A stretch of 64,000 nt of DNA from Candidatus Shapirobacteria bacterium (GCA_018062705.1 JAGORQ010000001.1:21624-85623); one strand, 5' to 3'; counted from the stretch's first letter, positions 7,516 to 46,423 are shown. Numbers and translations are program-made. The notes: generated by a model from the letters alone, not told the origin.

Positions 7516-7525
7516 GGAGAAGATA

Positions 7526-12296: not shown

Positions 12297-12324
12297 GTAG
12301 AGACGGGGCATGCCCCGTCTCTAC
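12297..12324. repeat. Family B palindrome (GTAGAGACGGGGCATGCCCCGTCTCTAC), intergenic
   Basis: Perfect 28-nt palindrome. Confidence 0.6.
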
Positions 12325-15531: not shown

Positions 15532-15559
15532 GTAGAGACGTTGCGCGCAACGTCTCTAC
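15532..15559. repeat. Family B palindrome (GTAGAGACGTTGCGCGCAACGTCTCTAC) between convergent genes; possible bidirectional terminator
   Basis: Perfect palindrome 12 nt after the DEAD helicase stop, followed by an A-run on + and a T-rich stretch on -. Confidence 0.55.
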
Positions 15560-15571: not shown

Positions 15572-16288
15572 TTATTTTTTTCCTGTTTCTATTTTACGCC
15601 TGGTTTCGCGGAGGGCGAGGCGGGGAAGAGTTAGACCCTGAGTTTCAAGGTACTCCCTAACTATTGATGGAAAGTTTTTGACCATTGAGCGGAGAATCCA
15701 AGAAACTGCTTTTGTTATCAGGATATCTGTTTCAAATTTTAGTTTTTCAACTAGCTCGAGTGATAGATTGGCTAGTTTTAAATTACTTGATTGGCGGAGT
15801 GGCTTACACAAGAAAACTATTGAAGCGCGACGCTGGTTAATGTTTTTTGATGTCGATAATTTCTTTAAAAATTTTGACCAATTTGGAAAATTTTCCAACA
15901 TAATTTCTGCCGAAACATCCGAGCTACACAAACTATCCACTTCTGCCCAACCATGGGTAAAGGTCAACCAATAGTCAAATTTATTGAGAGGAATTTGAGA
16001 GATAATCTTAGGATAGAATCCAATAAGTGAAGCTGCAAAAGAGGTTTCTTCAAAAGTACTAGCTTCTGAATAAAGTTTGTCGATTAACTCAACTAACTCA
16101 TTAATATTTAGAGGGTTGGCTTTGGCAGTTTTTTTGGCTAACTGGCGAATGAGATCGGTTTTGATACAACGAGTAGGCTTGTTACTGCCGAGATATTTTT
16201 GAACCCAACTGCGTTCGGATGGGTTCTCTTTGCCGGGGAGTTTGAATAACTCTGTCTGGACTTGGCGATAAAATGATTGGATGTCCAT
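15572..16288 (-). CDS. DNA alkylation repair enzyme (AlkC/AlkD-like HEAT-repeat glycosylase family)
   Basis: Resembles the all-helical DNA alkylation repair enzyme family (WVQKYLGS..., WLTFTHGWAEVDSLC). Confidence 0.55.
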   Translation of the reverse strand: MDIQSFYRQVQTELFKLPGKENPSERSWVQKYLGSNKPTRCIKTDLIRQLAKKTAKANPLNINELVELIDKLYSEASTFEETSFAASLIGFYPKIISQIPLNKFDYWLTFTHGWAEVDSLCSSDVSAEIMLENFPNWSKFLKKLSTSKNINQRRASIVFLCKPLRQSSNLKLANLSLELVEKLKFETDILITKAVSWILRSMVKNFPSIVREYLETQGLTLPRLALRETRRKIETGKK

Positions 16289-16294
16289 ACAAAA

Positions 16295-16969
16295 CTACAA
16301 TTTGTAATCTGAGATAACCTCATAACTAGCATAAGGGAGAATAGTTTTATCTAAAATACACATTTTTACCTCGGGCCAACAATTTTCCATTTCTTTAATT
16401 TGTTTTTGTGAAGACCAGACAACACCATCATCTAATTTCATTTTTTCTTTTTCACCCATACTCACCTCGATTTTATATATTGCTTGACCGTCGTCAAAAA
16501 GCACTTCTCCGGCGGGAGTTTTGGTAATTTTTAAATGCAAACTAACAAATGAAAATTTGTCTGACGTAACTTTTAGATCAGTATTTTTTTCAAAGATACG
16601 AACTAAAGACTCCTCTATTTTTTCTCCGAATCGAGGATCACCACTAGGTAAATTATAAAAATTTACTTTGGCCATAGGGTGTTCTTTTATCAGGAAATTT
16701 CCTGCGCCATCAGTAATTACCAGCCCGCAAAAAAATAGTTTTTTGCGAGGGAAGTCTAAGTCTGGCAGTCCAAGTGAGTAAATCTCTCGCAACCCTTTTG
16801 GAGTTATTTTGTATTTGTCTTGAGACTTTTCTATTAGTGCTTCTTTTGATAATTGCTTGAGGTGAAAAACAATATTATCTTCAAAATCGTAGCCTCTAGT
16901 TAGGTTTGAATATTTTTGACCGTTTTTGTTTACCAATCTGGCTAAAATAGTTTTTTGGATTTCATGCAT
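16295..16969 (-). CDS. Protein with N-terminal winged-helix-like region and a degenerate Nudix-like domain
   Basis: G-x5-E-x7-R pattern (GDPRFGEKIEESLVRIFEK) approximating the Nudix box. The N-terminal ~70 aa look like an HTH/wHTH. Confidence 0.35.
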   Translation of the reverse strand: MHEIQKTILARLVNKNGQKYSNLTRGYDFEDNIVFHLKQLSKEALIEKSQDKYKITPKGLREIYSLGLPDLDFPRKKLFFCGLVITDGAGNFLIKEHPMAKVNFYNLPSGDPRFGEKIEESLVRIFEKNTDLKVTSDKFSFVSLHLKITKTPAGEVLFDDGQAIYKIEVSMGEKEKMKLDDGVVWSSQKQIKEMENCWPEVKMCILDKTILPYASYEVISDYKL

Positions 16970-17042
16970 TTAGTGTAGTTTACTACTCTAGAAGCCAACA
17001 TTCTAAATTAGTACAATGCCTGAGTTATAGATTATCGCTACT

Positions 17043-17411
17043 ATGTTCAAAAAAATGTTTGCCAACTGTTTGCTAGTTAAAGATTTCAACAAATCTTTGG
17101 CTTTTTATAGAGATACTCTTGGACTTGAGATCAATACTACCGACGGTAAATTTGCCAATTTTAAGATAGATAATATCGAGCTGGCGATTATGGAACAATC
17201 ACAAGCGACTGAAATGTTACCAATGCAATACATGAAGGATGGTGGAAGTGTGCTACTCTGTTTCCAAGTTGAAGATGTAGTTAAAGCAGTCAAAAACCTA
17301 AAATCAAAAGGAGTAGATTTTATAGTGGATACAGAGAAGACATCTTGGGGGCAAACAGTCGCATATTTTCAAGACCCAGATAACAATGTTTGGGAAATAT
17401 CAAAATTATGA
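17043..17411 (+). CDS. VOC/glyoxalase/bleomycin-resistance family protein
   Basis: 122 aa with the beta-alpha-beta-beta-beta VOC pattern (LVKDFNKSLAFYRDTLGLE). Confidence 0.6.
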   Translation: MFKKMFANCLLVKDFNKSLAFYRDTLGLEINTTDGKFANFKIDNIELAIMEQSQATEMLPMQYMKDGGSVLLCFQVEDVVKAVKNLKSKGVDFIVDTEKTSWGQTVAYFQDPDNNVWEISKL

Positions 17412-18049
17412 TTAAAGCTGTAATTTTTGACTACGACGAGACTTTAACCAAAACTATCGAAGGTAAAGCCAAGGCGTATTCTGATTTTGCCAAGTCAGAA
17501 TATAATCAGGAGTTAACACTTGAGGCAGTCAGAAAGGCTTTTGGCAAACCGTACGAAGAATTTATCAAAACACTTTTTGGAAATGTCGAGGAGGTTAATA
17601 CCATTATTTCGAAATATCAAAAATTTAGTGAAAATTATCCACCAATCGCCTACGAAGACGCTGAGGAAAATGTTAATCGACTATTTACTAAGTACTTAGT
17701 CGGGATTGTTAGCGGTGTCAGAAGAAAAGCCCTTTTTAAAGATTTGGAAAAATTGAAATTTGACCAAAAGAGTTTTTTTCATATTCAATGTGGTGACGAC
17801 ACCGTTGACCTAAAACCAAATCCCAAAGTATTTACACCATTACTTTCAAAACTAAAATTATGCCAAATCAGTCCAAGTGAAGTTGTTTATGTTGGTGATA
17901 GTCTCGGAGACTTTCAGGTTTCGACTGCAGTTGGTTTTCAATTTATCGGCACAGCCGAGCATACAATTCCAAAATCAGAATTCGAAAAAGTCGGAGCAGA
18001 GTATATAACTGAATTTAAGCAATTGGAATTAGTCTTAAGCGGTAAGTAG
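17408..18049 (+). CDS. HAD-superfamily hydrolase (subfamily IA-like)
   Basis: DxD motif I (VIFDYDETL), GDS motif (YVGDSLGD). ATGA overlap with the preceding gene. Confidence 0.7.
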   Translation: MIKAVIFDYDETLTKTIEGKAKAYSDFAKSEYNQELTLEAVRKAFGKPYEEFIKTLFGNVEEVNTIISKYQKFSENYPPIAYEDAEENVNRLFTKYLVGIVSGVRRKALFKDLEKLKFDQKSFFHIQCGDDTVDLKPNPKVFTPLLSKLKLCQISPSEVVYVGDSLGDFQVSTAVGFQFIGTAEHTIPKSEFEKVGAEYITEFKQLELVLSGK

Positions 18050-18248
18050 GGAATAACTAGGTTGATTCTGGTATAGGTAATTTTTTCGTATGTCGTCCAG
18101 AATGTGGAGCAAAATGTTAAATTAGCCCAAAGATGAAGTATATATACTACTTTGCGAAGATGACATACTTTATGCCAGAATCTCAAATGTCTTTGACTAT
18201 CGATTCAATTGGTGAAACTTTATAGTTAAAGCAGTATATTTGTTATTA

Positions 18249-19472
18249 ATGATAAAGCTTACACACCAACAACAAGTTTTAGCTGGATATATATATAAAG
18301 AATTTGTATTAAAAGAAGCAAGGGAAAATGACGTTCCATTTATCGACTACGATCAGCAATTCCCAATTATTGACTGGTGGGCTTTGGCTGGAGCAAAGTT
18401 GCTTACTAAACTCAATCAAAGTCAGGTCGACAATTCGGATATATCCTCAGTCTGGAAGAATCGGGTTGTGTTAGACGAATGTCCTGTTTGTGGCCACACA
18501 ATGTCTTTAAAGAAATTGAAATATATTGGAATTTCTAGTATTGAAAATTGTCAAAATTGTGGTCATGGGTTTCAAAATCCGCAATTGTCATTGCCATATT
18601 CGGTAACTCCATTTCCAACACTTATGTCGGATAGTGCAATAACTATAGGTGGAAGAAAACCAAAGATTGTTGAAACCATTGACTATATTGAATCTTGTTT
18701 AAAAGATAAAGATTCTTGGAATGAGCAAGAAACATTAATAGATGTTGGATGTGGCAAAGGTGATCTCATTCAACTATTATTGGACAGAGGATACCCGGGT
18801 ACAATTTACGGTTGTGACACTGACATTAACGCAATTAAAATAGCCAAGGACAAGGTCCAAGGTAGTGACAAAGTTTCCTTAATCTGTGGCACTTTTGAAG
18901 ACCTGATTAGAATCAAAAAGCTTGGGCGGACAAATATTGGAACATTTGTATTGTCAAAATCTCTCGAGCATCTACCTAAACCAAAACAAATAATATCGCA
19001 AATGTTGAACCTGCTAAAACAATCCGGTGTGGTGATAATTTTGGAGATACCAAATCATGATCCGAAAAGTATCATTTCATCTTTGCTTGAAGACAAGACT
19101 GGCTATAATTATTTCCCAGACCATCTTCATTTTTTTACAGTCAATTCCCTAAGAATTCTAGCAAAATCCATCTTCGCAGAAATTAAAATAGACAGAGTCG
19201 GCCACCTTACAGAAAAAGAACCTGTCATAACCGAAATAGGAGCTCGGGGATGGTTTGGAAAAACTGAATGGGTTGGAGGTGAAATGGCTGTAAACAATCC
19301 GAATTTCTGTAACTCATACCAATTAAATATTTCCCATATAAAGAAATTTTTTAAGTTACACAACTTGAATATTCCTCCAAAAATTGGATCATTTGAGAAA
19401 TTCTTTGATTTATTCAAAAAAACAGATATTACCGGTTCGGCTTTATTGAACGCGGTAATAACAAAAACCTAA
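18249..19472 (+). CDS. Class I SAM-dependent methyltransferase with an N-terminal Cys4 zinc-ribbon
   Basis: CPVCGH...CQNCGH, and IDVGCGKGDL motif I. Confidence 0.6.
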   Translation: MIKLTHQQQVLAGYIYKEFVLKEARENDVPFIDYDQQFPIIDWWALAGAKLLTKLNQSQVDNSDISSVWKNRVVLDECPVCGHTMSLKKLKYIGISSIENCQNCGHGFQNPQLSLPYSVTPFPTLMSDSAITIGGRKPKIVETIDYIESCLKDKDSWNEQETLIDVGCGKGDLIQLLLDRGYPGTIYGCDTDINAIKIAKDKVQGSDKVSLICGTFEDLIRIKKLGRTNIGTFVLSKSLEHLPKPKQIISQMLNLLKQSGVVIILEIPNHDPKSIISSLLEDKTGYNYFPDHLHFFTVNSLRILAKSIFAEIKIDRVGHLTEKEPVITEIGARGWFGKTEWVGGEMAVNNPNFCNSYQLNISHIKKFFKLHNLNIPPKIGSFEKFFDLFKKTDITGSALLNAVITKT

Positions 19473-19843
19473 ATTTATTTTGATGTTTTAAATTGTTGTT
19501 TCTAGCTTTATCATTGTAGTCGCATACTTCTTCCAAATTATATCTAAGACTAAGAGCATTAATAAGTTATTTGGAGTTCTAGGGTCTCAAACACTGTCCT
19601 GGTATTCCCCCATTCCTAAATATGTCTACTAGTGGGAGCATAATAAAAAAGCCGTCAAAAATGACGGGTTATTTATTATCTTCTCACTCAGTTTCAGGTC
19701 TGGGAGCCTGTCCTGAGTGAATTCATCATGAACTTGCCGAATGAACCGAAGGACGCGGTGGAGCAGACATTAATATAATACGTAAAGATACGCCAAACAT
19801 ACTTTCTTGTAATGGTTTAATAGAAGTAAAGTATAATCAGTTC

Positions 19844-20299
19844 ATGAAAACTAAAAGAGCTGCACGAACGGTGATTATCGATGAGGATAACTTGGTCGCT
19901 TTGATTGATGTTAGAGATGGAGAGTATTATAAAATTCCCGGTGGTGGAATTGAGAAAGGTGAAACGGAAGAAGCAGCTGCCAAAAGAGAAGCTCTAGAAG
20001 AAGCTGGTTGTGATATTGAAATAATTAAAAAAATCGGAGAACAACAGTTTGAAGATATGAATCCTAAGTTTGGCGACATTATTCATCACTCTGTTTGTTA
20101 TTTAGCTAAGAAAGTCGGTGACAAGAAAAACACTAGTTTTGATGAGTGGGAAAAGAGTAACAAAATGAAACTAATCTGGGTTACTTTTCCAAAAGCTATA
20201 GAACTTTTTTCGAAAGTGAATACCCATGATTTCTTTGGGTCGGAGATAAATAAAAGAGACTTCGGGTTTGTTCTCAAAGCTAAAGAAATGTTGGCATAG
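19844..20299 (+). CDS. NUDIX hydrolase
   Basis: Canonical Nudix box GGGIEKGETEEAAAKREALEEAGC. Confidence 0.8.
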   Translation: MKTKRAARTVIIDEDNLVALIDVRDGEYYKIPGGGIEKGETEEAAAKREALEEAGCDIEIIKKIGEQQFEDMNPKFGDIIHHSVCYLAKKVGDKKNTSFDEWEKSNKMKLIWVTFPKAIELFSKVNTHDFFGSEINKRDFGFVLKAKEMLA

Positions 20300-20415
20300 T
20301 TTTAAAATCGTTCCACTCACGTAGCATCATAGACTCGGACTTATTTTGAACCCAAAATAGGTCCAAACTTTTCATACCCCCTCATAGACTTCAGAACTTT
20401 TGGTAAAATCATATA

Positions 20416-20727
20416 ATGAAAATATACAATTTTGCTACTGACCCAGGCGTTATTACTGGGCAAGAAAATAACCCTGATTTGTTTATTAGAAGAACTGATT
20501 TCTCTGCAGGGTATTCCGAAGCTGACTATCATAATCATCCCAACTCTTACGAATTCTATGTTGTGTTGAAAGGCAAAATAAAGTTTGAATCAGAAAATAA
20601 AGAAATAGTTGATGCAATCAGTGGTTCATTGGTTTATTTTAATGAAGCCGAGCCACACAGAATCGTAATGGTTGATGAAGATGTTGAAATGTTGTTGATA
20701 AAAAGACTTGGAGCTACAAAAGCATAA
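20416..20727 (+). CDS. Cupin-domain protein
   Basis: Cupin motifs (YHNHPNSYEFYVVLKG ... AEPHRIV). Confidence 0.55.
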   Translation: MKIYNFATDPGVITGQENNPDLFIRRTDFSAGYSEADYHNHPNSYEFYVVLKGKIKFESENKEIVDAISGSLVYFNEAEPHRIVMVDEDVEMLLIKRLGATKA

Positions 20728-20876
20728 GTTTACCTTAATATCCGCAAACAGCAGTCATGATTGATTCCAAAGCGGGGAGCAGATATATTCCATAAGTTAT
20801 TTGTTGGTAGAGCATAATTATATTGTAGTATAAGTTTTATTCAGCTGAGATTAAGCTACTAGACTATAATTGGAGT

Positions 20877-21533
20877 ATGAGAATACTAGTCGTCGAAGAT
20901 GAACACCGAATTGCCAACACCATTAAAAAAGGGTTGGAACTAGAACATTATGCTGTTGATGTGGCCTATGATGGAATTGAAGGTTATGATTTGGCCAGTA
21001 GTGGCGACCATGATTTGATTATCTTAGATTTAATGTTGCCCGGAAAAGACGGTCTAAAAATTTGTGCCGAGCTTAGGGCTAATAAAATTCAAACACCAAT
21101 TTTGATTTTGACGGCCAAAGGCCAAACACAAGACAAGGTGAAGGGGTTAAACATGGGAGCAGACGATTATTTGACAAAACCATTTGCGTTTGAAGAATTG
21201 TTGGCTCGAATCAAGGCGTTGTCGAGAAGACCAAAAACTGCGATTAATCAGATGATTGAAGTGGCTGATTTGAAAATTAATACCACAACTTATGAAGTTA
21301 AAAATGGTAATAAAATAATTGAACTATCGAAGAAAGAATATGCATTGCTCGAGTGTCTGGCCCGGCATGCCAATAAAATTTTGAGTAAAGATCAAATTAT
21401 GAATCAGGTGTGGAACTATGAGGCAGATATTTTACCAAATACGGTGGAAGTTTATATTAAAAAATTGAGAAATAAATTGGGGGAGAAAGTTATTAAAACA
21501 GTGAGAGGGTTTGGATATAAACTAGAGAGTTAA
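20877..21533 (+). CDS. OmpR/PhoB-family response regulator
   Basis: REC domain (D-D-K residues, ILDLMLPG) plus a C-terminal winged helix (VRGFGYKL). Confidence 0.85.
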   Translation: MRILVVEDEHRIANTIKKGLELEHYAVDVAYDGIEGYDLASSGDHDLIILDLMLPGKDGLKICAELRANKIQTPILILTAKGQTQDKVKGLNMGADDYLTKPFAFEELLARIKALSRRPKTAINQMIEVADLKINTTTYEVKNGNKIIELSKKEYALLECLARHANKILSKDQIMNQVWNYEADILPNTVEVYIKKLRNKLGEKVIKTVRGFGYKLES

Positions 21534-21534
21534 A

Positions 21535-21573
21535 TAGATTTAAGATTTAAGATGTATGATTTAAGAATAGAAC
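21535..21573. repeat. Family D element (TAGATTTAAGATTTAAGATGTATGATTTAAGAATAGAAC) between the RR stop and the HK start
   Basis: Shares more than 80% identity with copies at 23821, 24551, 32913, 39432 and 45654. Confidence 0.6.
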
Positions 21574-21588
21574 ATCAACAATCAAATA

Positions 21589-22599
21589 ATGTTTGAGAAA
21601 ACGAGACTAAAATTAACCGGCTGGTACTTGATGATTATTATGGTGGTGTCATTATCTTTTTCGGGCGTAATTTATAGAATTGTAACTCAAGAAATAGATA
21701 GATTTGCTCAGGCGCAACGATCAAGAACCGAAAGAAGGATGATGGTGTTTCCCGGAGGACCTACCGTGGTGTTTTTGGATACTGATTTGGTAGCAGAGAC
21801 AAAAAAGAGATTAGTAATTGAACTAATGTCGGTCAATGTACTTGTATTGATAATTTCTGGATGGTTAGCTTATTTGTTGTCTGGTAAGACATTGAAGCCA
21901 ATTCAGGAAATGGTGGAGGAACAAAATAGATTTATTTCTGATGCGTCACATGAACTTAAAACTCCCCTAACCTCCCTAAAAACGGCAATGGAAGTGAGTT
22001 TGCGCGATAAAAATTTTTCTTTAAACGAAGCAAAAGAGCAAATAAAGGAAAATATTGAAGAGGTAAATAAATTACAATCACTGTCGGAGGGGTTGTTGGA
22101 GTTATCAAGATTTGAACAACCAAAACAAATTAATGATTTGGAAAAAATAGTGTTGCCTAAATCAATTGCCAGTGTGGTTAAAACTTTGAAACCAATTGCC
22201 ACAAAAAAAGAAGTGAAAATAATTAACTTAATAAAAGGTGGTGGTGAAATAAAAGGCAACGAGGCGGAACTGAACAAGCTATGGACAATATTAATTGAAA
22301 ACGCGATTAAATATACTAATAATACTGGCGAAGTGAAATTGGAATTGGGTGAGACCAAAAATCATTGGCAAGTAATTATCAGTGATAATGGTGTGGGAAT
22401 CGCTCCAGCGGATGTGCCACATATTTTTGATCGATTTTATCGGGCGGACAGTGCCAGAACCAAAGCAGGAAATGATGGCTACGGACTAGGGCTAGCAATT
22501 GCTAAAAAAATAATTGAATCACACAATGCTAAAGTAGAAGTGCAAAGTGAAATTAATAAAGGTACCAGCTTTAAGCTGACATTCAGGAAAGAGATTTAA
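21589..22599 (+). CDS. Sensor histidine kinase (2 TM, HisKA, HATPase_c)
   Basis: H-box SHELKTPL and the N, G1, G2 boxes (DNGVGI, GYGLGLAI). Confidence 0.85.
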   Translation: MFEKTRLKLTGWYLMIIMVVSLSFSGVIYRIVTQEIDRFAQAQRSRTERRMMVFPGGPTVVFLDTDLVAETKKRLVIELMSVNVLVLIISGWLAYLLSGKTLKPIQEMVEEQNRFISDASHELKTPLTSLKTAMEVSLRDKNFSLNEAKEQIKENIEEVNKLQSLSEGLLELSRFEQPKQINDLEKIVLPKSIASVVKTLKPIATKKEVKIINLIKGGGEIKGNEAELNKLWTILIENAIKYTNNTGEVKLELGETKNHWQVIISDNGVGIAPADVPHIFDRFYRADSARTKAGNDGYGLGLAIAKKIIESHNAKVEVQSEINKGTSFKLTFRKEI

Positions 22600-22608
22600 A
22601 TTACCACC

Positions 22609-23817
22609 ATGAAAACAAAGGTTAAATATCTAATAATATTTTTGATAGGAGTTGGCGGTTGGTTAATTTATGCCAATTTGTTTAAAAATAAAACAGCTAC
22701 TGTCAGTTATCAAACAGCGGTGGCGGAAAAAGGAACACTGATAACCACATTATCTGGATCGGGACAAATTAGTAGTGTGAATAATCGAGCAGTAACCACA
22801 TCAACTTCGGGAGTAGTATCAAAAGTTTATGTCAAAAACGGACAAAAAGTAATAGTTGGTACAGTGGTAGCATCGGTTGACCTGGATATGACTGGAAGAC
22901 AAGCTCGAGATTCGGCCTACACTAGCTATTTGAGCGCCAAAAATACACTGGAGACGACAAAAAATAGTTTGTTGACATTACAAAGCACCCTGGCTACGGC
23001 TTATGATAAATTTCACAACGATGCCGGGGCTAGAGGTTTGGCGACAGACGATGTGACTTATGTTAACCAATACAATGCCTATCAATCAGCACAATTTAAT
23101 GTAAATAATTTTGTAAATCAACAAAAAATAGCTGAACAGCAAGTGGCTAATGCTTGGAGCAACTACCAACAAGCAAGTAATTTGATCTATGCACCGATTT
23201 CCGGAGTAATTAGTGGACTATCACTGAAACCTGGGATGGTCATAAGTGGTGGCACGACTGGTTTAAAAGTGGCCAATATTACGACTAGTGCTACACCAAC
23301 AGTAACAGTTAATCTGACTGAGGTAGATATTCCCAAGTTGACTGTAGGCAATAAAGCCACAATAACCTTGGATGCTTTGGCGGAGAAATCGTTTACCGGG
23401 ACGGTGGTGGCAATTGATAAATTGGGGTCGGTGTCGTCTGGGGTAGTTAATTATCCAGTAGTCATTCAGCTTGACAGCGTGTCGGAAGAAGTGTTCCCAA
23501 ACATGTCTGCCAGCGCCAAAATTATTACGAGTGTCAAAGACAATGTGATTTTGGTAGCGTCAACTGCTGTTAAAAAAACTAACGGGGTAGCAACTATCCA
23601 AGTGATGAAAAATGGTAAGCCAGTAAATATAGATGTGGAAGTTGGTGGAAATAATGATACTCAAACTGAAATAATTTCCGGAATTATTGAAGGCGATTTG
23701 GTAGTGACCTCGTCAACTAGTGCCTCAAAAGCCACAGGCACATCTACGTCGACTTCGGTTTTTGGTGGAAGTAATAGAGGTTTTGGGGGTGCTGGCGCGG
23801 TTAGAGTGGGGAGGTAA
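22609..23817 (+). CDS. HlyD/MacA-family periplasmic adaptor subunit
   Basis: N-terminal TM, coiled-coil, lipoyl and beta-barrel regions typical of membrane-fusion proteins. Sits in an operon with the ABC ATPase and permease. Confidence 0.7.
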   Translation: MKTKVKYLIIFLIGVGGWLIYANLFKNKTATVSYQTAVAEKGTLITTLSGSGQISSVNNRAVTTSTSGVVSKVYVKNGQKVIVGTVVASVDLDMTGRQARDSAYTSYLSAKNTLETTKNSLLTLQSTLATAYDKFHNDAGARGLATDDVTYVNQYNAYQSAQFNVNNFVNQQKIAEQQVANAWSNYQQASNLIYAPISGVISGLSLKPGMVISGGTTGLKVANITTSATPTVTVNLTEVDIPKLTVGNKATITLDALAEKSFTGTVVAIDKLGSVSSGVVNYPVVIQLDSVSEEVFPNMSASAKIITSVKDNVILVASTAVKKTNGVATIQVMKNGKPVNIDVEVGGNNDTQTEIISGIIEGDLVVTSSTSASKATGTSTSTSVFGGSNRGFGGAGAVRVGR

Positions 23818-23820
23818 AAA

Positions 23821-23877
23821 TAGATTTAAGAAATAAGATTTAAGATTCTTGCTGAAGCAAACAAGTATGAATAAGAC
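23821..23877. repeat. Family D element upstream of and overlapping the ABC ATPase start
   Basis: tagatttaagaaataagatttaagattcttgc...aagtatgaataagacaa. Confidence 0.55.
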
Positions 23878-24571
23878 AATAAAAAAAATAGTAATTGAGA
23901 CGAGGAATTTGTCGAAGGTGTATACCGTCGGAGATGTGAAGACGGTGGCACTCGATAAGGTGTCGTTTAACATTGAGCAAGGTGAATTTGTGGCGATAAT
24001 GGGACCATCTGGTTCGGGCAAATCAACTTTGATGCATATTATTGGAGCTCTGGACAAACCAACTGGCGGTCAATATATCTTGGATGGAAGTAATGTAGAA
24101 AATCTGAGTGATGATGAGCTGGCGGAAATTAGAAATAAAAAAATTGGGTTTATTTTTCAGGCGTTTAATTTATTACCCAGGACCACCACAATGAAAAATG
24201 TGATGCTACCAATGAAATATGCTGGGTTGTCGGAAGAAAAACAAAAAGCAACAGCAGAAAAGTTTTTGAAAATGGTGGGATTAGGAGACAGACTAAAACA
24301 TACCAGTAATCAGTTGTCCGGAGGACAACAACAGCGAGTGGCAATTGCTCGGGCACTAGTACTGGACCCGGCAATTATTTTGGCAGATGAGCCAACAGGA
24401 AATATTGCTTCGGCACAGGCGGATGAAATAATGGAGATTTTTGAAAAATTAAATGATGAAGGTCATACCATTGTGATGATTACTCACGAACCAGATATAG
24501 CCAATCATGCTAAAAGGATTATTCATATAAAGGATGGGCAAATATACAAAGATTTAAGAAATAAGATTTAA
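23867..24571 (+). CDS. ABC transporter ATP-binding protein (MacB/LolD-like)
   Basis: Walker A (GPSGSGKST), signature LSGGQQQRV, Walker B (ILADEPTGN). The last 8 codons are encoded by family D copy D3. Confidence 0.85.
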
Positions 24572-24590
24572 GATGTATGAATAAAACAAA
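24551..24590. repeat. Family D element that supplies the C-terminus (KDLRNKI) and TAA stop of the ABC ATPase and precedes the permease ATG
   Basis: gatttaagaaataagatttaagatgtatgaataaaacaaa. Confidence 0.55.
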
Positions 24591-24593
24591 CAC

Positions 24594-25820
24594 ATGAAAG
24601 AATTAATTAATCAATTTGTTGAAAGTTTGGGGACACTGACTCTGAATAAAACCAGGACAGGATTGGCGATTTTGGGAATTGTGATCGGTATTGGTAGTGT
24701 GATTGCGCTGGTGTCGCTCGGTGAGGCGACCCAAAAATCAATCCAAAATCAGATTGAGTCCTTGGGGTCAAACTTATTGACGGTTAATCCTGGCGCAGTC
24801 AGTTCGGGAGGAGTGCGGGGGGCACAGGGTGGTGTGACTACCTTAACTTTGGAAGATGCTAAAGCGATAATTACATCGAGCACTGTGACGACAATTAAAA
24901 CAGTGTCGCCAGAGTTTTCCAGAAGAACCCAGGTGGTAACAACCGGTAAAAATACCAACACCCAAATAATTGGAGTTAGCCCGGAATATGCGAATGTACA
25001 TAAACTGTCGGTGGAAACGGGTAGCTTTGTGTCGCAAACAGAAGTTGACGGCATGAGTAAGGTGGCAGTACTCGGGCCACAGGTTGTAACTGATTTGTTT
25101 GGAGATGGCGCTAATCCAGTTGGTCAGACAATAAGAATCAGTGGACAAACTTTTACGGTTATTGGAGTGACAGTGTCAAAAGGAGGCAGTGGTTTTCAAA
25201 ATCAAGACGATATTATTTACGTACCAATAACTACCGCCCAAAAACAATTGTTTGGAGTAAATTATTTGAGCTCAATTGGACTAGAAGCGAAAACGGCCGA
25301 GGTGATGACCCAAGCCCAAGACGAGGTAGGTTACTTATTATTATCGAGACATAAATTTAATGATCCGAGTCAGGCTGATTTTTCAATTTTTTCCCAACAG
25401 GATATTTTGAATACCGCTTCATCAACTACCGGGACGTTTACTTCGTTATTGTCGGGAATAGCGGCCATTTCATTACTAGTAGGCGGAATTGGGATAATGA
25501 ATATAATGCTAGTGACCGTGACGGAGAGAACTAGAGAAATTGGACTGCGTAAAGCCTTGGGAGCCAAAAAGAAAGTGATAACCAGTCAATTTTTGACTGA
25601 GTCAGTTATTCTGACATTTACTGGCGGAATTATTGGAGTGGCAATGGGGATACTGGCATCGTACATAATTTCACTCTTAACCGGCTCGTTATTTGTAGTA
25701 TCGGTAAATTCGATAGTGTTGGCATTTGGAGTGTCGGCGGGAATTGGAGTAGTGTTTGGCTGGTACCCAGCCCAAAAAGCTGCCAATATGCAACCGATAG
25801 AAGCGTTGAGATATGAATAG
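24594..25820 (+). CDS. ABC transporter permease, MacB/FtsX-like (4 TM with a large periplasmic domain)
   Basis: MacB_PCD-like periplasmic region and the FtsX C-terminal TM bundle. Confidence 0.8.
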   Translation: MKELINQFVESLGTLTLNKTRTGLAILGIVIGIGSVIALVSLGEATQKSIQNQIESLGSNLLTVNPGAVSSGGVRGAQGGVTTLTLEDAKAIITSSTVTTIKTVSPEFSRRTQVVTTGKNTNTQIIGVSPEYANVHKLSVETGSFVSQTEVDGMSKVAVLGPQVVTDLFGDGANPVGQTIRISGQTFTVIGVTVSKGGSGFQNQDDIIYVPITTAQKQLFGVNYLSSIGLEAKTAEVMTQAQDEVGYLLLSRHKFNDPSQADFSIFSQQDILNTASSTTGTFTSLLSGIAAISLLVGGIGIMNIMLVTVTERTREIGLRKALGAKKKVITSQFLTESVILTFTGGIIGVAMGILASYIISLLTGSLFVVSVNSIVLAFGVSAGIGVVFGWYPAQKAANMQPIEALRYE

Positions 25821-25911
25821 TTTAAATCCCAAACTCTAAACTCTAAATTCTAAAAAATTCAGTAAAAGTTAAGTAATAATTTATAAAATATATTAATAGT
25901 TATTAAATATT

Positions 25912-25931
25912 CCGCCTGCGGCGGGCTTTTT
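25912..25931 (+). terminator. GC hairpin (CCGCCTGCGGCGG) plus T-run abutting the next ATG
   Basis: tccgcctgcggcgggcttttt ATG, read directly from the sequence. Confidence 0.35.
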
Positions 25932-26384
25932 ATGAAACAAAATCAAATTATTTCCTTAGTTTTAGTAGCGGTTATTTTTGGTGCAGGTGGGTTTTTTGGA
26001 GGGATGAAATATCAACAATCAAAAGCCCCCAATTTTAATTTTGGAGACCGAGCAGGTATGGTGGGTCAATTTGGAAATAGACAAGGTGGTGGTATGGGAC
26101 AAAACGGAACTCAAGCGAGAAGAATGGGTGGGCAAACCTATGGCGATATATTGTCTTTAGATGACAAAACGATGACAGTAAAAATGGCAGATGGTAGCTC
26201 AAAAATAATTTTGTTATCTGACTCAACTTCATTTAATAAAGAGGCGACTGGTACTAAAACAGATTTAAAAGTTGGTGATAAGGTGGGTGTATTTGGTCAA
26301 AGCAATACCGATGGCTCAATCAGTGCCCAAATGGTGCAAATAAACCCAGTGATGCGACAACAAAGCCTTGTGCCGACGAAATAA
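25932..26384 (+). CDS. Hypothetical secreted Gly/Gln-rich protein
   Basis: N-terminal TM/signal (IISLVLVAVIFGAGGFFGG) and a G/Q-rich low-complexity region. Confidence 0.4.
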   Translation: MKQNQIISLVLVAVIFGAGGFFGGMKYQQSKAPNFNFGDRAGMVGQFGNRQGGGMGQNGTQARRMGGQTYGDILSLDDKTMTVKMADGSSKIILLSDSTSFNKEATGTKTDLKVGDKVGVFGQSNTDGSISAQMVQINPVMRQQSLVPTK

Positions 26385-26539
26385 GACCAAAAAAAATCCG
26401 TTAAAACGGATTCAGAAAAGGAAGGAATGAAAAAACAGTAGAGCAAAAAAATTTAAAATATAGGGGGGTATAAATTAAATTAAAGGGGGGATTTTTGGTC
26501 TGACTGTTTTTTCGTTTTTGGTTTGGGTTGGTTGTCTTG

Positions 26540-26760
26540 TGTGTTGTTGGTCACCCCCTTTGGGTGACCGCCGTGAGGACTCTTCCTATTCGCACCCATT
26601 TCTGTGCTACTTATGGAGAGGATACCTATTGGTAAAACTATAGGAAGAGTCCTAATTCCGGTCTCAGACGTTTCTGACTACACGAACAATACAAACGAAC
26701 AAACGTCTGAACTAATAAATGGTGGAGTCCACCGCTTGTTAGTTCAGACGTTACCTAAAC
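26540..26760 (+). ncRNA. Candidate structured non-coding RNA of unknown family, in a 477-nt non-coding gap
   Basis: Stacked hairpins: ggtcaccccctttgggtgacc; a 15-bp inverted repeat gaggactcttcctat / ataggaagagtccta; tcagacgtttctga; and a 13-bp stem acgtctgaactaa / ttagttcagacgt enclosing ggtggagtccacc. A TATAAAT box lies about 70 nt upstream. No conserved RNase P, tmRNA or SRP motifs were seen. Confidence 0.25.
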
Positions 26761-26861
26761 CAAAATTTTTAAAGAACTGATCGAATGGGTCAATGCAGAC
26801 ATTGAAATTCGATTGATGGGGTATTGTAATACCAAAAATATAGGCTGTCAAGACAGAGTTT

Positions 26862-27233
26862 TTATGGCAGATAAATCAATTTTAAAGCAGACTGAAGTGC
26901 TGTTTTGTGCTCGTCGGTGGCACCAAGTGACAATTCCCATTTTGGGGTCATAAACATATGGGTAATAAATCCAGAGCCGTGGACTCGTCGATAAAAATCT
27001 TCAAAATCTGAATGGGTTGCACCAGATTTTTTAATTGCTTCATAGACATCATCACTAAAAATGTCATTTTGAGAAAAAATGGGGAAATGGTGTAAACGAC
27101 GAAGATTTTTGGTGTATTTGTCTAGCCGTTTCAAATTTTTGGGGATATTTTCTGGTCCTTCGGAAGAAATGATGCCAGAAACATAACCAATTTGAGTAAT
27201 ACCTTGTTGACGCATTTTTAAAAAAAGAACCAA
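26862..27233 (-). CDS. Hypothetical protein (possibly a DUF4406/nucleoside deoxyribosyltransferase-like fold)
   Basis: 123-aa ORF. The family assignment is weak. Confidence 0.35.
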   Translation of the reverse strand: MVLFLKMRQQGITQIGYVSGIISSEGPENIPKNLKRLDKYTKNLRRLHHFPIFSQNDIFSDDVYEAIKKSGATHSDFEDFYRRVHGSGFITHMFMTPKWELSLGATDEHKTALQSALKLIYLP

Positions 27234-27677: not shown

Positions 27678-28154
27678 TTAGTATAATGCCATTGTGTATG
27701 AATATAAATATAACGGTGAAGTAATTTTTGATTTTATAAGGGCGACACTATCTGATAGTTGTTTAAGGTTTTTTTGTTGCTCTTTTAACCGACGTTGATT
27801 CAATACATAACCTTTGACTAAATATTGTTTTAGGGTTTTAGTTGCCCAGATACGAAATTGGGTGGCCTTGACGGAATTTATGCGATAACCGACCGAAATT
27901 ATCAAGTCTAAGCTATAAGCTTTGACTGGTTTATCAGAATTTGCAATGTTCCATTTTAGAACATTGCTTTTTTCAACCAATTCGTTTGATTTAAAAATAT
28001 TATTTATGTGCTTGGTGACTGCAGGTCGTCGAGTACCGAATAAATCAGCTATTTGTGACTGTGTTAACCAGATGTTATTTTTTTCGATTTTAGTTTTTAG
28101 TTTAACTTCACCGTTAATGGATTTGTATATTGCAATCTGATTATTATTTTTCAT
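27678..28154 (-). CDS. RhuM-family (virulence protein RhuM-like) protein
   Basis: Conserved RhuM region (WLTQSQIADLFGTRRPAVTKHINNIF...FRIWATKTLKQYLVKGY). Start taken at the internal MKNNNQIAIY. Confidence 0.55.
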   Translation of the reverse strand: MKNNNQIAIYKSINGEVKLKTKIEKNNIWLTQSQIADLFGTRRPAVTKHINNIFKSNELVEKSNVLKWNIANSDKPVKAYSLDLIISVGYRINSVKATQFRIWATKTLKQYLVKGYVLNQRRLKEQQKNLKQLSDSVALIKSKITSPLYLYSYTMALY

Positions 28155-28211
28155 AAATAAATATAACCCAAATAAAAACCGAAGTAAATAATTTGGTGGT
28201 AAGATTAATGA

Positions 28212-28859
28212 ATGAAGAACCGAGCCAACAGCTCCACCAATCAACAAATTCGCAGTACTAGTGGTCAAGCATTTAGGCGGGCAGGAAAAGTATTGGTTTT
28301 AATGGTGGTTATCTTGGTTGGGGTAATGGTGGTAGGCAAAATGTACGGCGGGATGAAAGAGGATAAATTTTGTGTGACCAAACATGTTCCAACAACTACA
28401 AAACCTAAGGATTTGGTGACTGCCCAAGATTGGCTCTATACGGGTGATTATGATTTTGAGAGCGGTAATTGCGAACAAGCAATTTCCGATCTTAATATGG
28501 CAATTGGAATTAATCCAAAATATGCTGAGGCATACAATAACCGAGGTTACATAAAAACCAGACTAAAGCGCTATGCTGAGGCGTTACCCGATTTTGACAA
28601 AGCGATAGAATTAAGACCGGGTTATCCTCATGCGCTGATGAATCGAGGTGATTTGTACAATTATTATTTGGTGGTAAAAGACAAGACTAAAGCGATGGCG
28701 GATTATGATAGGGTGATTGCTTTGGGAAAAGAGACTATAAAATCAGAAGCAGTTTGTGGCCACCGTGATATGGCCACTTACGAGGGAAATTTTGTCAGAG
28801 CAATTTTTAATGCGGTTTTGAGGAAGGGAGAGTGTTGGAAATTGTATTTTGAAAAATAA
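28212..28859 (+). CDS. Membrane-anchored TPR-repeat protein
   Basis: N-terminal TM followed by three or more TPR units (AEAYNNRGYIKTRLKRYAEALPDFDKAIELRPGYPHALMNRGDLY). Confidence 0.6.
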   Translation: MKNRANSSTNQQIRSTSGQAFRRAGKVLVLMVVILVGVMVVGKMYGGMKEDKFCVTKHVPTTTKPKDLVTAQDWLYTGDYDFESGNCEQAISDLNMAIGINPKYAEAYNNRGYIKTRLKRYAEALPDFDKAIELRPGYPHALMNRGDLYNYYLVVKDKTKAMADYDRVIALGKETIKSEAVCGHRDMATYEGNFVRAIFNAVLRKGECWKLYFEK

Positions 28860-29503: not shown

Positions 29504-30397
29504 ATCGTGGTGGAAGATTACTTTGCCAAGAGCTAGAGTCATGGGACGGTTTTTCATGGAGTCAAGAATTATTTTATTTAAATTATCGCGGTACTCAGCG
29601 GTGTCGGCAGACTCAAAATCGGGAATTAGTTCGGGGGAATTTTTTTGAAGATACTCGTAAAGTCGGGTTTTGATTTTGGAACTTTGATTGAGATGTTCAA
29701 ACCAAACTTCGGAAACTCCGGCATGCTGGAGCGCATCGAGCAATTCATTAATGGCTTTTTTATTATTGACAAAATGTGGCAGAATTGGACCGACAAAGGC
29801 GTAAGTGGAAACACCATTATCGTGTAATTGTTTTAGTGCTTCAATGCGAGCAGAAATAGGTGGTGCTAGAGGTTCGAGAAAGCGAGCCACTTGGTCGTCG
29901 AGTGTGGTGACAGTAAAACCAACTTGAACTTTTTTTAATTTTTTTAAAATATCAATATCTTGAGTAACCAAGGGTGATTTTGTTTGAATGCCAATTGCTC
30001 CTTCATAACCAAAATCAACAAAAACTTGAAGACATTGGCGGGTGATATGGTATTTGGCTTCGAGACCGGTGTAGGGGTCGGTGACCGAACTAAAAAAGAT
30101 AAAACCAAAATCTTTTGATGATTTAATTTTATTTTGGTGTGTAGAGACGCCAGGCCTGGCGTCTCTACGAGACAGCTTGTTTAATTCATTTTTTAATAAT
30201 TCAGGCGCGTTGGTTTTGACATCTAAATAACTCCCCCACTCTTCATCGGGGTGATGCCAGCGGGCTATTTGGGCGGCATAGCAGTACGTGCAACCGAGCT
30301 GGCAACCGCCGTAGGAATTAACTACCCAATCGGCACCAGGCAGACCGGATTTGGTGAGGATTGTTTTGGCGGTAATTTCGTTAATTTTGAGGAGCAT
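29486..30397 (-). CDS. Radical SAM protein of the spore-photoproduct-lyase/DNA-photolyase-like (SplB) type, carrying an in-frame family B palindrome insert
   Basis: The CxxxCxxC cluster (CQLGCTYC) near the N-terminus and the overall architecture fit SplB-like rSAM. Residues SRRDARPGVST are encoded by the palindrome at 30141..30168. Confidence 0.55.
   Translation of the reverse strand: MLLKINEITAKTILTKSGLPGADWVVNSYGGCQLGCTYCYAAQIARWHHPDEEWGSYLDVKTNAPELLKNELNKLSRRDARPGVSTHQNKIKSSKDFGFIFFSSVTDPYTGLEAKYHITRQCLQVFVDFGYEGAIGIQTKSPLVTQDIDILKKLKKVQVGFTVTTLDDQVARFLEPLAPPISARIEALKQLHDNGVSTYAFVGPILPHFVNNKKAINELLDALQHAGVSEVWFEHLNQSSKIKTRLYEYLQKNSPELIPDFESADTAEYRDNLNKIILDSMKNRPMTLALGKVIFHHDLPKKR
30141..30168. 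repeat. Family B palindrome (GTAGAGACGCCAGGCCTGGCGTCTCTAC) in-frame inside the radical SAM gene
   Basis: Perfect 28-nt palindrome. The minus-strand reading frame passes through it without a stop. Confidence 0.6.
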
Positions 30398-45653: not shown

Positions 45654-45698
45654 GATTTAAGAAGTAAGATTTAAGATGTATGAATAAAACAAAAAAAC
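45654..45698. repeat. Family D element abutting the start codon of the minus-strand small gene
   Basis: gatttaagaagtaagatttaagatgtatgaataaaacaaaaaaac. Confidence 0.55.
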
Positions 45699-45705
45699 AT
45701 AGGTC

Positions 45706-45735: not shown

Positions 45736-45737
45736 AA

Positions 45738-46421: not shown

Positions 46422-46423
46422 CT

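What the first reader, a model, noticed from the sequence alone, without database searches (positions are those of the whole stretch)
26385..26861. 477-nt gene-free region with dense nested hairpins: candidate novel structured ncRNA
The region has a 15-bp long-range inverted repeat (26576..26590 versus 26640..26653), a 13-bp stem (26703..26715 versus 26738..26750) enclosing another hairpin, and two more local hairpins. All lie downstream of a TATAAAT box (~26472). I could not match it to RNase P, tmRNA, SRP or 6S consensus motifs. AGGAAGAGTCCTAATTCCGG is only loosely reminiscent of the RNase P P4 region.
Basis: seen in the sequence. Interest (0 to 1): 0.5.

Follow-up and report, generated by a model that had tools for sequence, protein, structure and literature searches.

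The report
Conserved minus-strand structured RNA gene
It is shared with at least one other Shapirobacteria genome, matches no known RNA family, and its function is unknown.

Summary
The hairpins are real. The 477-nt gap folds far better than shuffled sequence (z -8.5 on the plus strand, -9.9 on the minus strand) and is the most structured long intergenic region in the window. Rfam 15 has no match, and there is no tRNA or tmRNA.

The minus strand carries a TTGACA-17-TACAAT promoter (26851-26823) and an intrinsic terminator (26413-26394 plus T8). Together these define an RNA of about 430 nt (about 26817 to 26388), directly downstream of a DUF4406-like gene.

A second Ca. Shapirobacteria genome (locus L017) has a homolog at the same position and on the same strand. 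It shares:
- identical promoter hexamers and spacing, with a diverged spacer;
- its own terminator;
- the same fold architecture;
- 18 base pairs kept through changes on both sides.

The RNA blocks are as conserved (69-77% identity) as the flanking coding genes. No ORF is conserved on either strand.

Function is unknown. My best guess is a stable stand-alone RNA that works in trans. The main rival is an orphaned 5' leader of a DNA-alkylation-repair operon. The case rests on only two sequences, with no expression data.

The parts
26823..26851 (-). Sigma-70-type promoter: -35 TTGACA (26851-26846), 17-nt spacer, -10 TACAAT (26828-26823). It starts 10 nt after the stop codon of the DUF4406-like gene.
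   Evidence: The promoter scan scores it 11 of 12. L017 has the same hexamers and the same 17-nt spacing at 10363-10391, while only 8 of 17 spacer bases are identical. No ATG follows within 4-11 nt, unlike the leaderless genes of this genome.
26388..26817 (-). Predicted ncRNA transcript of about 430 nt. The start is inferred as about 7 nt after the -10 box and the end as the terminator U-run.
   Evidence: Bounded by the promoter and terminator. Folds at -140.8 kcal/mol, z -9.3. The homologous RNA in L017 spans about 10398-10985, roughly 590 nt, z -9.6.
26780..26813 (-). P1, the 5'-terminal hairpin: outer stem AUCGAAU/AUUCGAU and inner stem UCAAUG/CAUUGA.
   Evidence: Pair probabilities 0.96-0.99. 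Conserved in L017 with one compensatory pair (U-A to A-U) and one U-A to U-G change.
26757..26778 (-). Longest conserved block, AGUUCUUUAAAAAUUUUGGUUU. The first 12 nt are predicted single-stranded. The last 9 nt form the 5' strand of the long-range helix.
   Evidence: Exact 12-mer and 13-mer matches with L017. Unpaired probability of AGUUCUUUAAAA is 0.91 here and 0.64 in L017.
26516..26524 (-). 3' strand (AAACCAAAA) of the long-range helix. It pairs with 26757-26765 and closes about 240 nt.
   Evidence: Predicted independently in both RNAs: 9 bp at P 0.94 here, and 10 bp (UUUUGGUUUU/AAAACCAAAA) at P 0.87 in L017, where it spans about 335 nt.
26702..26752 (-). It has a 14-bp lower stem, a conserved internal motif 5'-ACAAGC/AUUUAU-3' (two C-A oppositions flanking A-U, A-U, G-U), and an apical 5-bp stem.
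   Evidence: In L017 the lower and upper stems differ in sequence but stay paired: 12 pairs changed on both sides, 97.7% of cells paired. The internal motif is identical.
26566..26701 (-). Variable central domain. The block UUGUUCGUGU (26680-26689) is conserved.
   Evidence: L017 has about 150 more nt here, with a different sequence that includes a 23-nt exact direct repeat. Only short blocks are shared.
26549..26569 (-). GC-rich hairpin GGUCACCC-AAAGG-GGGUGACC.
   Evidence: Pair probability 1.00 in both RNAs. One compensatory A-U to G-C change in L017.
26503..26548 (-). A/C-rich strand with almost no U and few G. It supplies one strand of the long-range helix, of a weak helix with UUGUUCGUGU, and of P6.
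   Evidence: Seen in the sequence. Shared blocks with L017 are ACACACAA, AAACCAAAAAC and AAAAAACAG.
26429..26513 (-). P6, the 3' domain. An 11-bp helix GAAAAAACAGU/ACUGUUUUUUC (26513-26503 with 26439-26429) encloses CAAAAA/UUUUUG and an AU-rich apical hairpin with two unpaired C6 runs.
   Evidence: Pair probability 1.00 here and 0.96 in L017. Four compensatory pairs and 100% pairing.
26386..26413 (-). Intrinsic terminator: stem GAAUCCGU/ACGGAUUU (26413-26394) followed by U8.
   Evidence: Called by the terminator scan on the minus strand only. On the plus strand the hairpin has an A-run before it and no T-run after it. L017 ends with its own terminator, 10959-10978 plus U6.

Best explanation
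The gap is a gene for a structured non-coding RNA of about 430 nt, transcribed from the minus strand. Transcription starts at a sigma-70-type promoter immediately after the DUF4406-like gene and ends at an intrinsic terminator just before the convergent DUF5666 gene.

Predicted fold, 5' to 3':
- a 5'-terminal hairpin (P1);
- a conserved single-stranded AGUUCUUUAAAA;
- a long-range helix (UUUUGGUUU with AAACCAAAA) that encloses a long irregular hairpin (P3, with a conserved C-A/G-U internal motif), a lineage-variable domain and a GC hairpin;
- an A/C-rich strand;
- a 3' domain (P6);
- the terminator.

Shown: the signals, the homolog in a second species, the shared architecture, the compensatory pair changes and the absence of a conserved ORF.

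Inferred: the RNA is made as a discrete, stable transcript whose ends are protected by the 5' hairpin and the terminator hairpin. It acts in trans as a protein-binding or regulatory RNA. The conserved unpaired 12-mer and the conserved irregular loop of P3 are the likely contact sites, and the centre is a tolerated expansion segment.
For: - Transcription signals. The minus strand has a promoter scoring 11/12 and a terminator. In L017 the same hexamers and 17-nt spacing sit 8 nt after the DUF4406 stop codon, with a diverged spacer, and a terminator follows about 590 nt later.
- Homology. Homologous sequence lies at the same syntenic position and on the same strand: nhmmer E 2.6e-9 and 2.4e-5. 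Covariance models built from the window sequence alone hit L017 over their full length at E 2.8e-11 and 1.6e-12.
- Pair conservation, 5' domain. Of 35 pairs, 97% of cells are paired and 13 pairs changed on both sides. None of 500 shuffles reaches this, and slid controls give at most 2.
- Pair conservation, 3' domain. Of 39 pairs, all cells with letters are paired and 5 pairs changed on both sides. Slid controls give 0.
- Architecture. Independent minimum-free-energy folds of the two RNAs recover the same helices, including the long-range helix.
- Conservation level. Nucleotide identity of the RNA blocks is 69-77%, equal to the flanking MgsA, radical-SAM, MGMT and DUF4406 coding sequences.
- Not coding. 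No ORF is conserved on either strand, and 1-nt indels sit inside the conserved blocks.
- Possible third case. A JGI contig carrying the closest DUF4406 homolog (P0122) has a 592-nt gene-free gap at the same position.
- Not a leaderless mRNA. This genome's genes mostly have a -10 box 4-11 nt before the ATG. This promoter has no ATG there, in either species.
- Still intact when alone. In this window the RNA has no co-directional downstream gene, yet all its elements are intact.
Against: - Only two sequences could be compared, so the covariation counts are not a statistical proof.
- The alignments were fitted to the model structure, which leans the counts towards that structure.
- Hairpin covariation is symmetric, so it does not tell RNA from DNA or one strand from the other. 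G-U versus A-C counts are about equal on the two strands.
- No expression data are available.
- The RNA is absent at the syntenic site in three other genomes of the same DUF4406 subclade (L009/L016, L010, L011), and from the other 27 of the 29 loci (all but L016 and L017) fetched by the genome-contig scan. Its distribution is therefore narrow and patchy.
- In L017, and probably in the P0122 contig, the RNA is directly upstream of and co-directional with a 49-aa ORF plus a DNA-alkylation-repair gene. That fits a cis-acting leader as well.
- The trans-acting mechanism is pure inference.
Confidence: 0.55

Rival explanations
1. The RNA is a cis-acting 5' leader (attenuator or riboswitch-like) of the operon made of a 49-aa membrane peptide and an AlkD-type DNA-alkylation-repair gene. 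In this genome a block of about 9.4 kb (16970-26384, reverse orientation) has been inserted between the leader and that operon. The window copy would then be an orphaned leader that still has its promoter.
For: In L017 the order is DUF4406, RNA, terminator, 49-aa ORF, DNA_alkylation (231 aa), all on one strand. The terminator ends about 20 nt before the ORF. The P0122 contig shows DUF4406, a 592-nt gap, a 48-aa ORF and DNA_alkylation. The three relatives without the RNA also lack the AlkD module at this site. In the window the AlkD gene (15572-16288, minus strand) is still co-directional and next to the DEAD helicase, as in L017. The 3' end of the window RNA is shorter than in L017, which has two more hairpins before its terminator.
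Against: The window copy keeps an 11/12 promoter, a clean terminator and every conserved helix without any gene to regulate. A leader of 430-590 nt with a variable centre would be unusual. No Rfam cis-regulatory family matches. No alternative antiterminator pairing is shared by the two sequences.
Confidence: 0.2
2. The region is the 3' untranslated region of the DUF4406-like mRNA, possibly processed into a 3'-UTR-derived RNA. On this view it is not an independent gene.
For: No terminator lies between the DUF4406 stop codon (26862) and the structured region, and the -35 box starts only 10 nt after the stop, so read-through is likely. The RNA is always directly downstream of DUF4406.
Against: Both promoter hexamers and their spacing are conserved while the spacer between them has diverged. 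This points to selection on a separate start site. Most DUF4406 homologs have no such extension.
Confidence: 0.1
3. The region is not a functional RNA. It is a cluster of DNA palindromes or terminator-type hairpins between convergent genes, or the remains of a mobile element, kept by template-switch repair of quasi-palindromes rather than by selection.
For: Both strands fold equally well. Another gap between convergent genes (46373-46497) holds four consecutive hairpins. The genome carries a repeated palindrome family, AGAGACG-N10-CGTCTCT. The region sits at a synteny breakpoint, next to a truncated RhuM fragment.
Against: The region is single-copy in the window and has no copy of the palindrome family. 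Its sequence blocks are as conserved as coding genes between two species whose proteins are about 59% identical. Long-range helices 65 and 240-335 nt apart are conserved, four pairs with compensatory changes, and local template switching does not explain that. The promoter and terminator are conserved. In L017 the region is not between convergent genes.
Confidence: 0.1
4. One reading: a plus-strand RNA started by the TATAAAT box near 26472.
For: The plus strand has the lower folding energy (-164 against -146 kcal/mol), and more G-T wobbles fall on the plus strand in the window copy (hand count). A weak hairpin with a T-run lies at 26846-26866 on the plus strand.
Against: No plus-strand promoter is called in the region. 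TATAAAT has no -35 box and lies in the AU-rich apex of P6. L017 has a different sequence there and no equivalent promoter. The hairpin at 26394-26413 terminates only minus-strand transcription.
Confidence: 0.04
5. The region encodes a small protein: the 58-aa ORF at 26604-26780 (plus strand), the 39-aa ORF at 26480-26599 (minus strand), or the 15-aa ORF at the 5' end of the RNA.
For: These ORFs exist. tblastx gives a 32-aa match at 37.5% identity in the frame of the 58-aa ORF.
Against: The identities in that match come from the conserved nucleotide blocks. The N-terminal halves are unrelated, and L017 has a stop and no start codon there. The 39-aa ORF is open only because the A/C-rich tract cannot contain stop codons, and a 1-nt indel shifts its frame in L017. 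The 15-aa and 10-aa peptides are frameshifted relative to each other. None has a Shine-Dalgarno sequence or a leaderless start.
Confidence: 0.01

Closest known systems
Large structured bacterial ncRNAs of unknown function found by comparative genomics (OLE, ROOL, GOLLD, raiA, HEARO)
   Same: Several hundred nucleotides long. Multi-helix fold closed by long-range pairing. Conserved irregular internal loops. A variable insertion domain. No coding potential.
   Different: No covariance-model match to any of them in Rfam 15. Known so far from only 2-3 genomes of one candidate-phylum lineage. AU-rich helices. Much less sequence conservation has been shown.
Stand-alone trans-acting bacterial small RNAs with their own sigma-70 promoter and intrinsic terminator
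   Same: A discrete transcription unit between protein genes, with a 5' hairpin and a terminator hairpin. A short, conserved, accessible single-stranded stretch could act as a seed. The RNA is lineage-specific.
   Different: At 430-590 nt it is several times longer than typical sRNAs. No target or chaperone is identified. The host mostly uses leaderless mRNAs, so the usual targeting of Shine-Dalgarno regions would not apply.
Protein-sponge RNAs such as CrcZ (about 400 nt, A-rich CA motifs) or CsrB/RsmZ
   Same: Similar length. Contains an A/C-rich tract of about 50 nt with AAN-type triplets.
   Different: This is a resemblance from general knowledge only. The tract is predicted to be base-paired with U-rich strands. 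There are no repeated GGA or AANAANAA loop motifs. No Crc, Hfq or CsrA partner has been examined.
Long 5' leaders and transcription attenuators
   Same: In L017 the RNA ends in a terminator about 20 nt before a co-directional operon.
   Different: In this window no gene follows it. No Rfam leader or riboswitch matches. No shared alternative pairing has been found.

Membership tests
Bacterial RNase P RNA (Rfam RF00010/RF00011) | Covariance-model match, including the P4 helix with its conserved nucleotides | tested here: not met
   No RNase P hit at the gathering score in the 64-kb window, nor at E <= 10 in 26200-27100 or in the L017 homolog. The 'P4-like' string is one arm of a 14-bp hairpin that is not conserved in L017.
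tmRNA | tRNA-like domain plus a tag-peptide reading frame | tested here: not met
   ARAGORN finds no tRNA or tmRNA in the window. No Rfam tmRNA hit.
6S RNA / SRP RNA | Covariance-model match (6S: long hairpin with a central bubble; SRP: domain IV motif) | tested here: not met
   No hit, even at E <= 10.
Known large ncRNAs (OLE, GOLLD, ROOL, HEARO, raiA) and riboswitches or leaders in Rfam 15 | Covariance-model match at or near the gathering score | tested here: not met
   Zero hits at gathering in the window and in L017, L020 and L032. The sub-threshold hits are generic hairpin matches to eukaryotic miRNA and snoRNA models, plus, in L017, weak matches to two leader models (S6-S18-Chlorobi and Phe_leader).
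Independent ncRNA gene (generic) | Own promoter and terminator on one strand | tested here: met
   The minus strand has TTGACA-17-TACAAT and a hairpin followed by U8. The same signals are found in L017. These are consensus matches; transcription itself was not observed.
Independent ncRNA gene (generic) | Conservation of sequence and secondary structure in other species, with compensatory changes | tested here: met
   One homolog, L017: E 2.8e-11 and 1.6e-12 with models built from the single window sequence, and 18 pairs changed on both sides. With only two sequences this is supportive, not statistically conclusive.
Independent ncRNA gene (generic) | Expression as a discrete transcript | not testable with these tools
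Independent ncRNA gene (generic) | Absence of a conserved reading frame | tested here: met
Repeated palindromic elements (REP/MITE-like) | Multiple copies in the genome, with terminal inverted repeats or a shared palindrome consensus | tested here: not met
   The region is single-copy in the window and has no copy of the AGAGACG-N10-CGTCTCT family. Only 64 kb of the genome could be searched.
cis-regulatory leader / attenuator | A co-directional regulated gene immediately downstream | tested here: inconclusive
   Met in L017, and by gene layout in the P0122 contig. Not met in this window, where the next gene is convergent.

The most novel reading that the evidence does not exclude
This is the founding member of a new class of large (430-590 nt) structured RNAs specific to Shapirobacteria (candidate phyla radiation). 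It would work as a ribonucleoprotein or ribozyme-like RNA linked to the conserved DNA-alkylation-repair neighbourhood (MGMT, DUF4406-like, RNA, AlkD-like). The conserved C-A/G-U internal loop of P3 and the unpaired AGUUCUUUAAAA would be its functional sites.
Probability: 0.12. Interest if true: 0.7.

Novelty: new member of a known kind. Interest (0 to 1): 0.42.

Why it matters
Almost no lineage-specific non-coding RNAs have been described for candidate-phyla-radiation bacteria. These organisms have tiny genomes and, as this window shows, mostly leaderless mRNAs, so the usual ways in which small RNAs act need not apply. A conserved, independently transcribed, highly structured RNA of more than 400 nt in a genome this compact is likely to be doing something useful. 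If confirmed, it would be a new RNA family to add to Rfam and a concrete candidate for transcriptome and structure-probing studies. With only two sequences and no function, it is a solid lead rather than a discovery.

Tried and rejected
1. Known RNA families. Rfam at gathering score on the whole window and at E <= 10 on the region gave only generic hairpin hits to eukaryotic miRNA models. ARAGORN found nothing.
2. Phage and plasmid collections. blastn in 'distant' mode gave no match.
3. Synteny through the MacB-type permease on the left flank. Relatives are at most 79% identical, and other genes follow the DUF5666 gene in them, with no homolog of the region.
4. Exact-pattern scans.
   - Viral contigs: one pattern gave nothing. 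The other gave two unrelated hairpins, one apparently within coding sequence (judged by eye; no ORF call was run) and one a phage iteron array.
   - Genome contigs with the arms of the 25-bp hairpin: 0 hits, so the window's own genome is not in that collection.
   - Metagenome contigs with the arms of the 14-bp repeat: 2 unrelated high-GC hairpins.
5. Remnant of the DEAD-box helicase that follows DUF4406 in relatives. Only a 21-aa low-complexity tblastx match (E 0.047) was found, and the intact helicase is at 14321-15520.
6. Further homologs among 38 related loci (568 kb) by blastn, nhmmer, block profiles and covariance models. Only L017 is a true hit. The L032 hit (E 8e-4) appears to lie within glycosyltransferase-like coding sequence (my reading of the DNA; not checked with an ORF call or a Pfam scan). 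The window hit at 7323-7517 (E 4e-3) comes from an AGAGACG palindrome plus an A-rich tract.
7. Other DUF4406 contigs. The P0122 contig has the right layout but its DNA could not be fetched. The P0136 contig ends 12 nt after the gene. P0126 has genes at that position.
8. Small-protein coding was rejected.
9. C-rich loops targeting Shine-Dalgarno sequences was rejected, because only 5 of 53 genes have an SD-like motif.
10. The complement of the conserved 12-mer as a target seed is not enriched in the window: 18 matches with up to 2 mismatches against 22 expected.
11. Strand assignment from G-U versus A-C counts is inconclusive.
12. Literature searches found nothing on ncRNAs of this lineage.

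Full report
**Context.** The window comes from a Candidatus Shapirobacteria (Microgenomates, candidate phyla radiation) metagenome-assembled genome. Source names for the identical flanking proteins say so. The region 26385-26861 lies between two convergent genes. One is a DUF5666 protein gene (25932-26384, plus strand), the last gene of a two-component/ABC-efflux block. The other is a DUF4406-like gene (26862-27233, minus strand).

**Observation.**
- The '15-bp inverted repeat' has a perfect 14-bp core, 26576-26589 with 26640-26653.
- The '13-bp stem' is the base of one continuous 25-bp imperfect hairpin, 26702-26752.

The 477 nt fold at -164.1 kcal/mol on the plus strand (z -8.5) and -146.3 on the minus strand (z -9.9). 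No shuffle reaches these values. Among 17 intergenic gaps of the window this one has the most extreme z-scores. Only the short gap 46373-46497, also between convergent genes, is comparable. Rfam 15 has no hit at gathering score anywhere in the 64 kb. At E <= 10 the region matches only eukaryotic miRNA-type hairpin models. ARAGORN finds no tRNA or tmRNA.

**Which strand.** The promoter and terminator scan finds nothing on the plus strand inside the region. On the minus strand it finds:
- TTGACA-17-TACAAT (26851-26823, 11 of 12 matches), starting 10 nt after the DUF4406 stop codon;
- a clean intrinsic terminator, GAAUCCGU-UUUA-ACGGAUUU followed by U8 (26413-26386).

On the plus strand that hairpin has an A-run before it and no T-run after it.

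**Finding a homolog.** The following routes failed:
- synteny through the left-flank permease;
- phage and plasmid BLAST;
- exact-pattern scans of the viral, genome and metagenome collections.

Anchoring on the DUF4406-like protein worked. Three relatives have MgsA, radical-SAM, MGMT and DUF4406 followed directly by a convergent DEAD-box helicase, with no structured region. A scan of species-representative genomes with a DUF4406 alignment then returned 29 loci.

One of them, L017 (JACPHO010000001.1, Ca. Shapirobacteria; DUF4406 59% identical), carries homologous DNA directly downstream of DUF4406 on the same strand (nhmmer E 2.6e-9 and 2.4e-5). The closest DUF4406 homolog of all (P0122, 66-67% identical) sits on a JGI contig with a 592-nt gene-free gap at the same place. 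That gap is followed by a 48-aa ORF and a DNA_alkylation gene, exactly as in L017, but its DNA could not be retrieved.

**What is conserved.** In L017 the promoter hexamers and their 17-nt spacing are identical, while only 8 of 17 spacer bases match. The scan calls it 11/12 with an extended -10. About 590 nt later comes L017's own terminator (10959-10978 plus U6). L017's region also has no Rfam match.

Independent minimum-free-energy folds of the two RNAs (z -9.3 and -9.6) recover the same elements with high pair probabilities:
- P1, a 5'-terminal two-tier hairpin;
- a conserved linker;
- a long-range helix, UUUUGGUUU with AAACCAAAA, spanning 240 nt here and 335 nt in L017;
- P3, a long hairpin directly after it;
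- a central domain;
- an 8-bp GC hairpin;
- an A/C-rich strand;
- P6, an 11-bp helix enclosing an AU-rich hairpin.

**Objective alignment and pair counts.** To avoid hand-aligning, I built covariance models from the window sequence alone, with its own predicted structure. R1 covers 26816-26700 and R2 covers 26573-26425.
- Both hit L017 over their full length (59.7 bits, E 2.8e-11; 62.6 bits, E 1.6e-12). They hit nothing else credible in 622 kb of related loci.
- 5' domain: 35 pairs, 97% of cells paired, 13 pairs changed on both sides. Twelve of these are in P3, whose lower and upper stems are almost entirely rewritten. None of 500 shuffles reaches this, and slid controls give at most 2.
- 3' domain: 39 pairs, all cells with letters paired, 5 compensatory pairs. 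13 of 500 shuffles reach this, and slid controls give 0.
- P3 keeps an identical irregular motif in both species, 5'-ACAAGC paired against AUUUAU-3'. This gives two C-A oppositions around A-U, A-U and G-U.
- The longest identical block is AGUUCUUUAAAA(A)UUUUGGUUU. Its first 12 nt are predicted unpaired in both RNAs.

**Level of conservation.** Between the two genomes the flanking coding genes align at 69-73% nucleotide identity. The alignment of the DUF4406 gene runs straight on through the promoter and 5' domain of the RNA at 69%. The 3' block aligns at 77%. Neutral intergenic DNA would not align at this distance.

**Not coding.**
- The 58-aa plus-strand ORF, the 39-aa minus-strand ORF and the 15-aa ORF at the RNA's 5' end have no conserved counterparts.
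- tblastx identities fall on the conserved nucleotide blocks and occur in several frames with internal stops.
- One-nucleotide indels lie inside conserved blocks.
- The A/C-rich tract is open only because it contains almost no T.
- The genome is largely leaderless. In 31 of 53 ATG-start ORFs a TAnnnT box lies 4-11 nt before the ATG (shuffles give 14.8 +/- 3.2), and only 5 have an SD-like motif. This promoter has no ATG at that distance in either species.

**Genomic history.** L017 reads radical-SAM, MGMT, DUF4406, RNA, 49-aa ORF, AlkD-type DNA_alkylation gene, then a convergent 76-aa ORF and the DEAD helicase. The window has the same order. The difference is that about 9.4 kb (16970-26384) lies between the RNA's terminator and the 224-aa-ORF/AlkD pair (16295-16969 and 15572-16288, minus strand). 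That block is in the opposite orientation and carries glyoxalase, HAD, methyltransferase, NUDIX, cupin, two-component and ABC-efflux genes. The DEAD helicase sits at 14321-15520. Here, therefore, the RNA has no gene to regulate in cis. Its 3' end is also shorter than in L017, which has two more hairpins before its terminator.

**Interpretation.**
- Best supported (0.55): an independent minus-strand ncRNA gene of a new, narrowly distributed family. The mechanism is inference only: a stable transcript protected by terminal hairpins that acts in trans through the conserved unpaired 12-mer and the conserved P3 loop, with an expandable centre.
- Main rival (0.2): a 5' leader of the 49-aa/AlkD operon, orphaned here by the insertion. 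The layout in L017 and in the P0122 contig fits this, and so does the co-absence of the RNA and AlkD at this site in three relatives. The intact promoter, terminator and helices of the orphan copy argue against it.

**Limits.**
- Only two sequences could be compared.
- The alignments were fitted to the model structure.
- Hairpin covariation cannot tell the strands apart or tell RNA from DNA.
- G-U versus A-C counts are about even.
- There are no expression data.
- Only 64 kb of this genome, plus 20-kb pieces of relatives, could be searched.

**Verdict.** It is a new member of a known kind, an unclassified bacterial ncRNA. Interest is moderate at 0.42.

Noticed in passing
window 7490-7513, 12299-12322, 15534-15557, 30143-30166, 46476-46499, 46781-46804, 53497-53520; also L009 9691, L011 520 and 2898, L016 14607: A repeated 24-nt palindrome family, AGAGACG-N10-CGTCTCT, has 7 copies in the window where shuffles give none. 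The outer 7 bp are fixed. The inner 10 nt differ between copies but are themselves palindromic, or nearly so, which looks like a covarying inner stem. Four copies are intergenic and three lie inside ORFs. The family also occurs in other Shapirobacteria loci. It contains the CGTCTC site as an inverted pair. Its function is unknown; it may be a REP-like element or a protein-binding or terminator hairpin.
   Followed up: partly
whole window (start regions of 53 ATG-start ORFs): Genes appear to be mostly leaderless. In 31 of 53 ORFs a TAnnnT -10-like box lies 4-11 nt upstream of the ATG (shuffled 14.8 +/- 3.2, maximum 26). Only 5 of 53 have an SD-like GGAG/GAGG/AGGA motif within 22 nt.
   Followed up: partly
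window 46373-46497: A 125-nt gap lies between the convergent RRM-protein gene and the ORF 46498-47040. It holds four consecutive perfect hairpins, including a bidirectional terminator (A7-CCCGTC-GCAA-GACGGG-T6) and one copy of the AGAGACG palindrome. Its fold z-scores are -8.6 (plus strand) and -6.0 (minus strand).
   Followed up: partly
window 16970-26384: Compared with L017, and with the gene layout of the P0122 contig, a block of about 9.4 kb lies between the RNA and the AlkD gene, in the opposite orientation. It carries glyoxalase, HAD hydrolase, methyltransferase, NUDIX, cupin, a response regulator, a histidine kinase, and membrane-fusion/ABC/MacB/DUF5666 genes. The right junction falls within about 10 nt of the RNA's terminator.
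   Followed up: partly
window 26862-27233 (-) and 27678-28268 (-): The DUF4406-like ORF lacks about 28 N-terminal residues that all 12 homologs have. The RhuM-family ORF matches only profile positions 16-85 of 252, so it is a fragment. Both suggest local gene decay next to the RNA.
   Followed up: no
L017 10556-10640: The variable centre of the L017 RNA contains a 23-nt exact direct repeat (CAAGUGUAGUGUUCUACCGCAAG, spacing about 36 nt), and each copy forms a small hairpin. The window RNA has no such repeat.
   Followed up: no
window 1-64000: No tRNA gene and not a single Rfam family at gathering score in 64 kb. This is a notably RNA-gene-poor stretch.
   Followed up: no
window 45416-45985: This 570-nt gene-free gap upstream of the RRM-protein gene is the largest gap in the window. 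It is moderately structured on the plus strand (z -3.8). It was not examined further.
   Followed up: no
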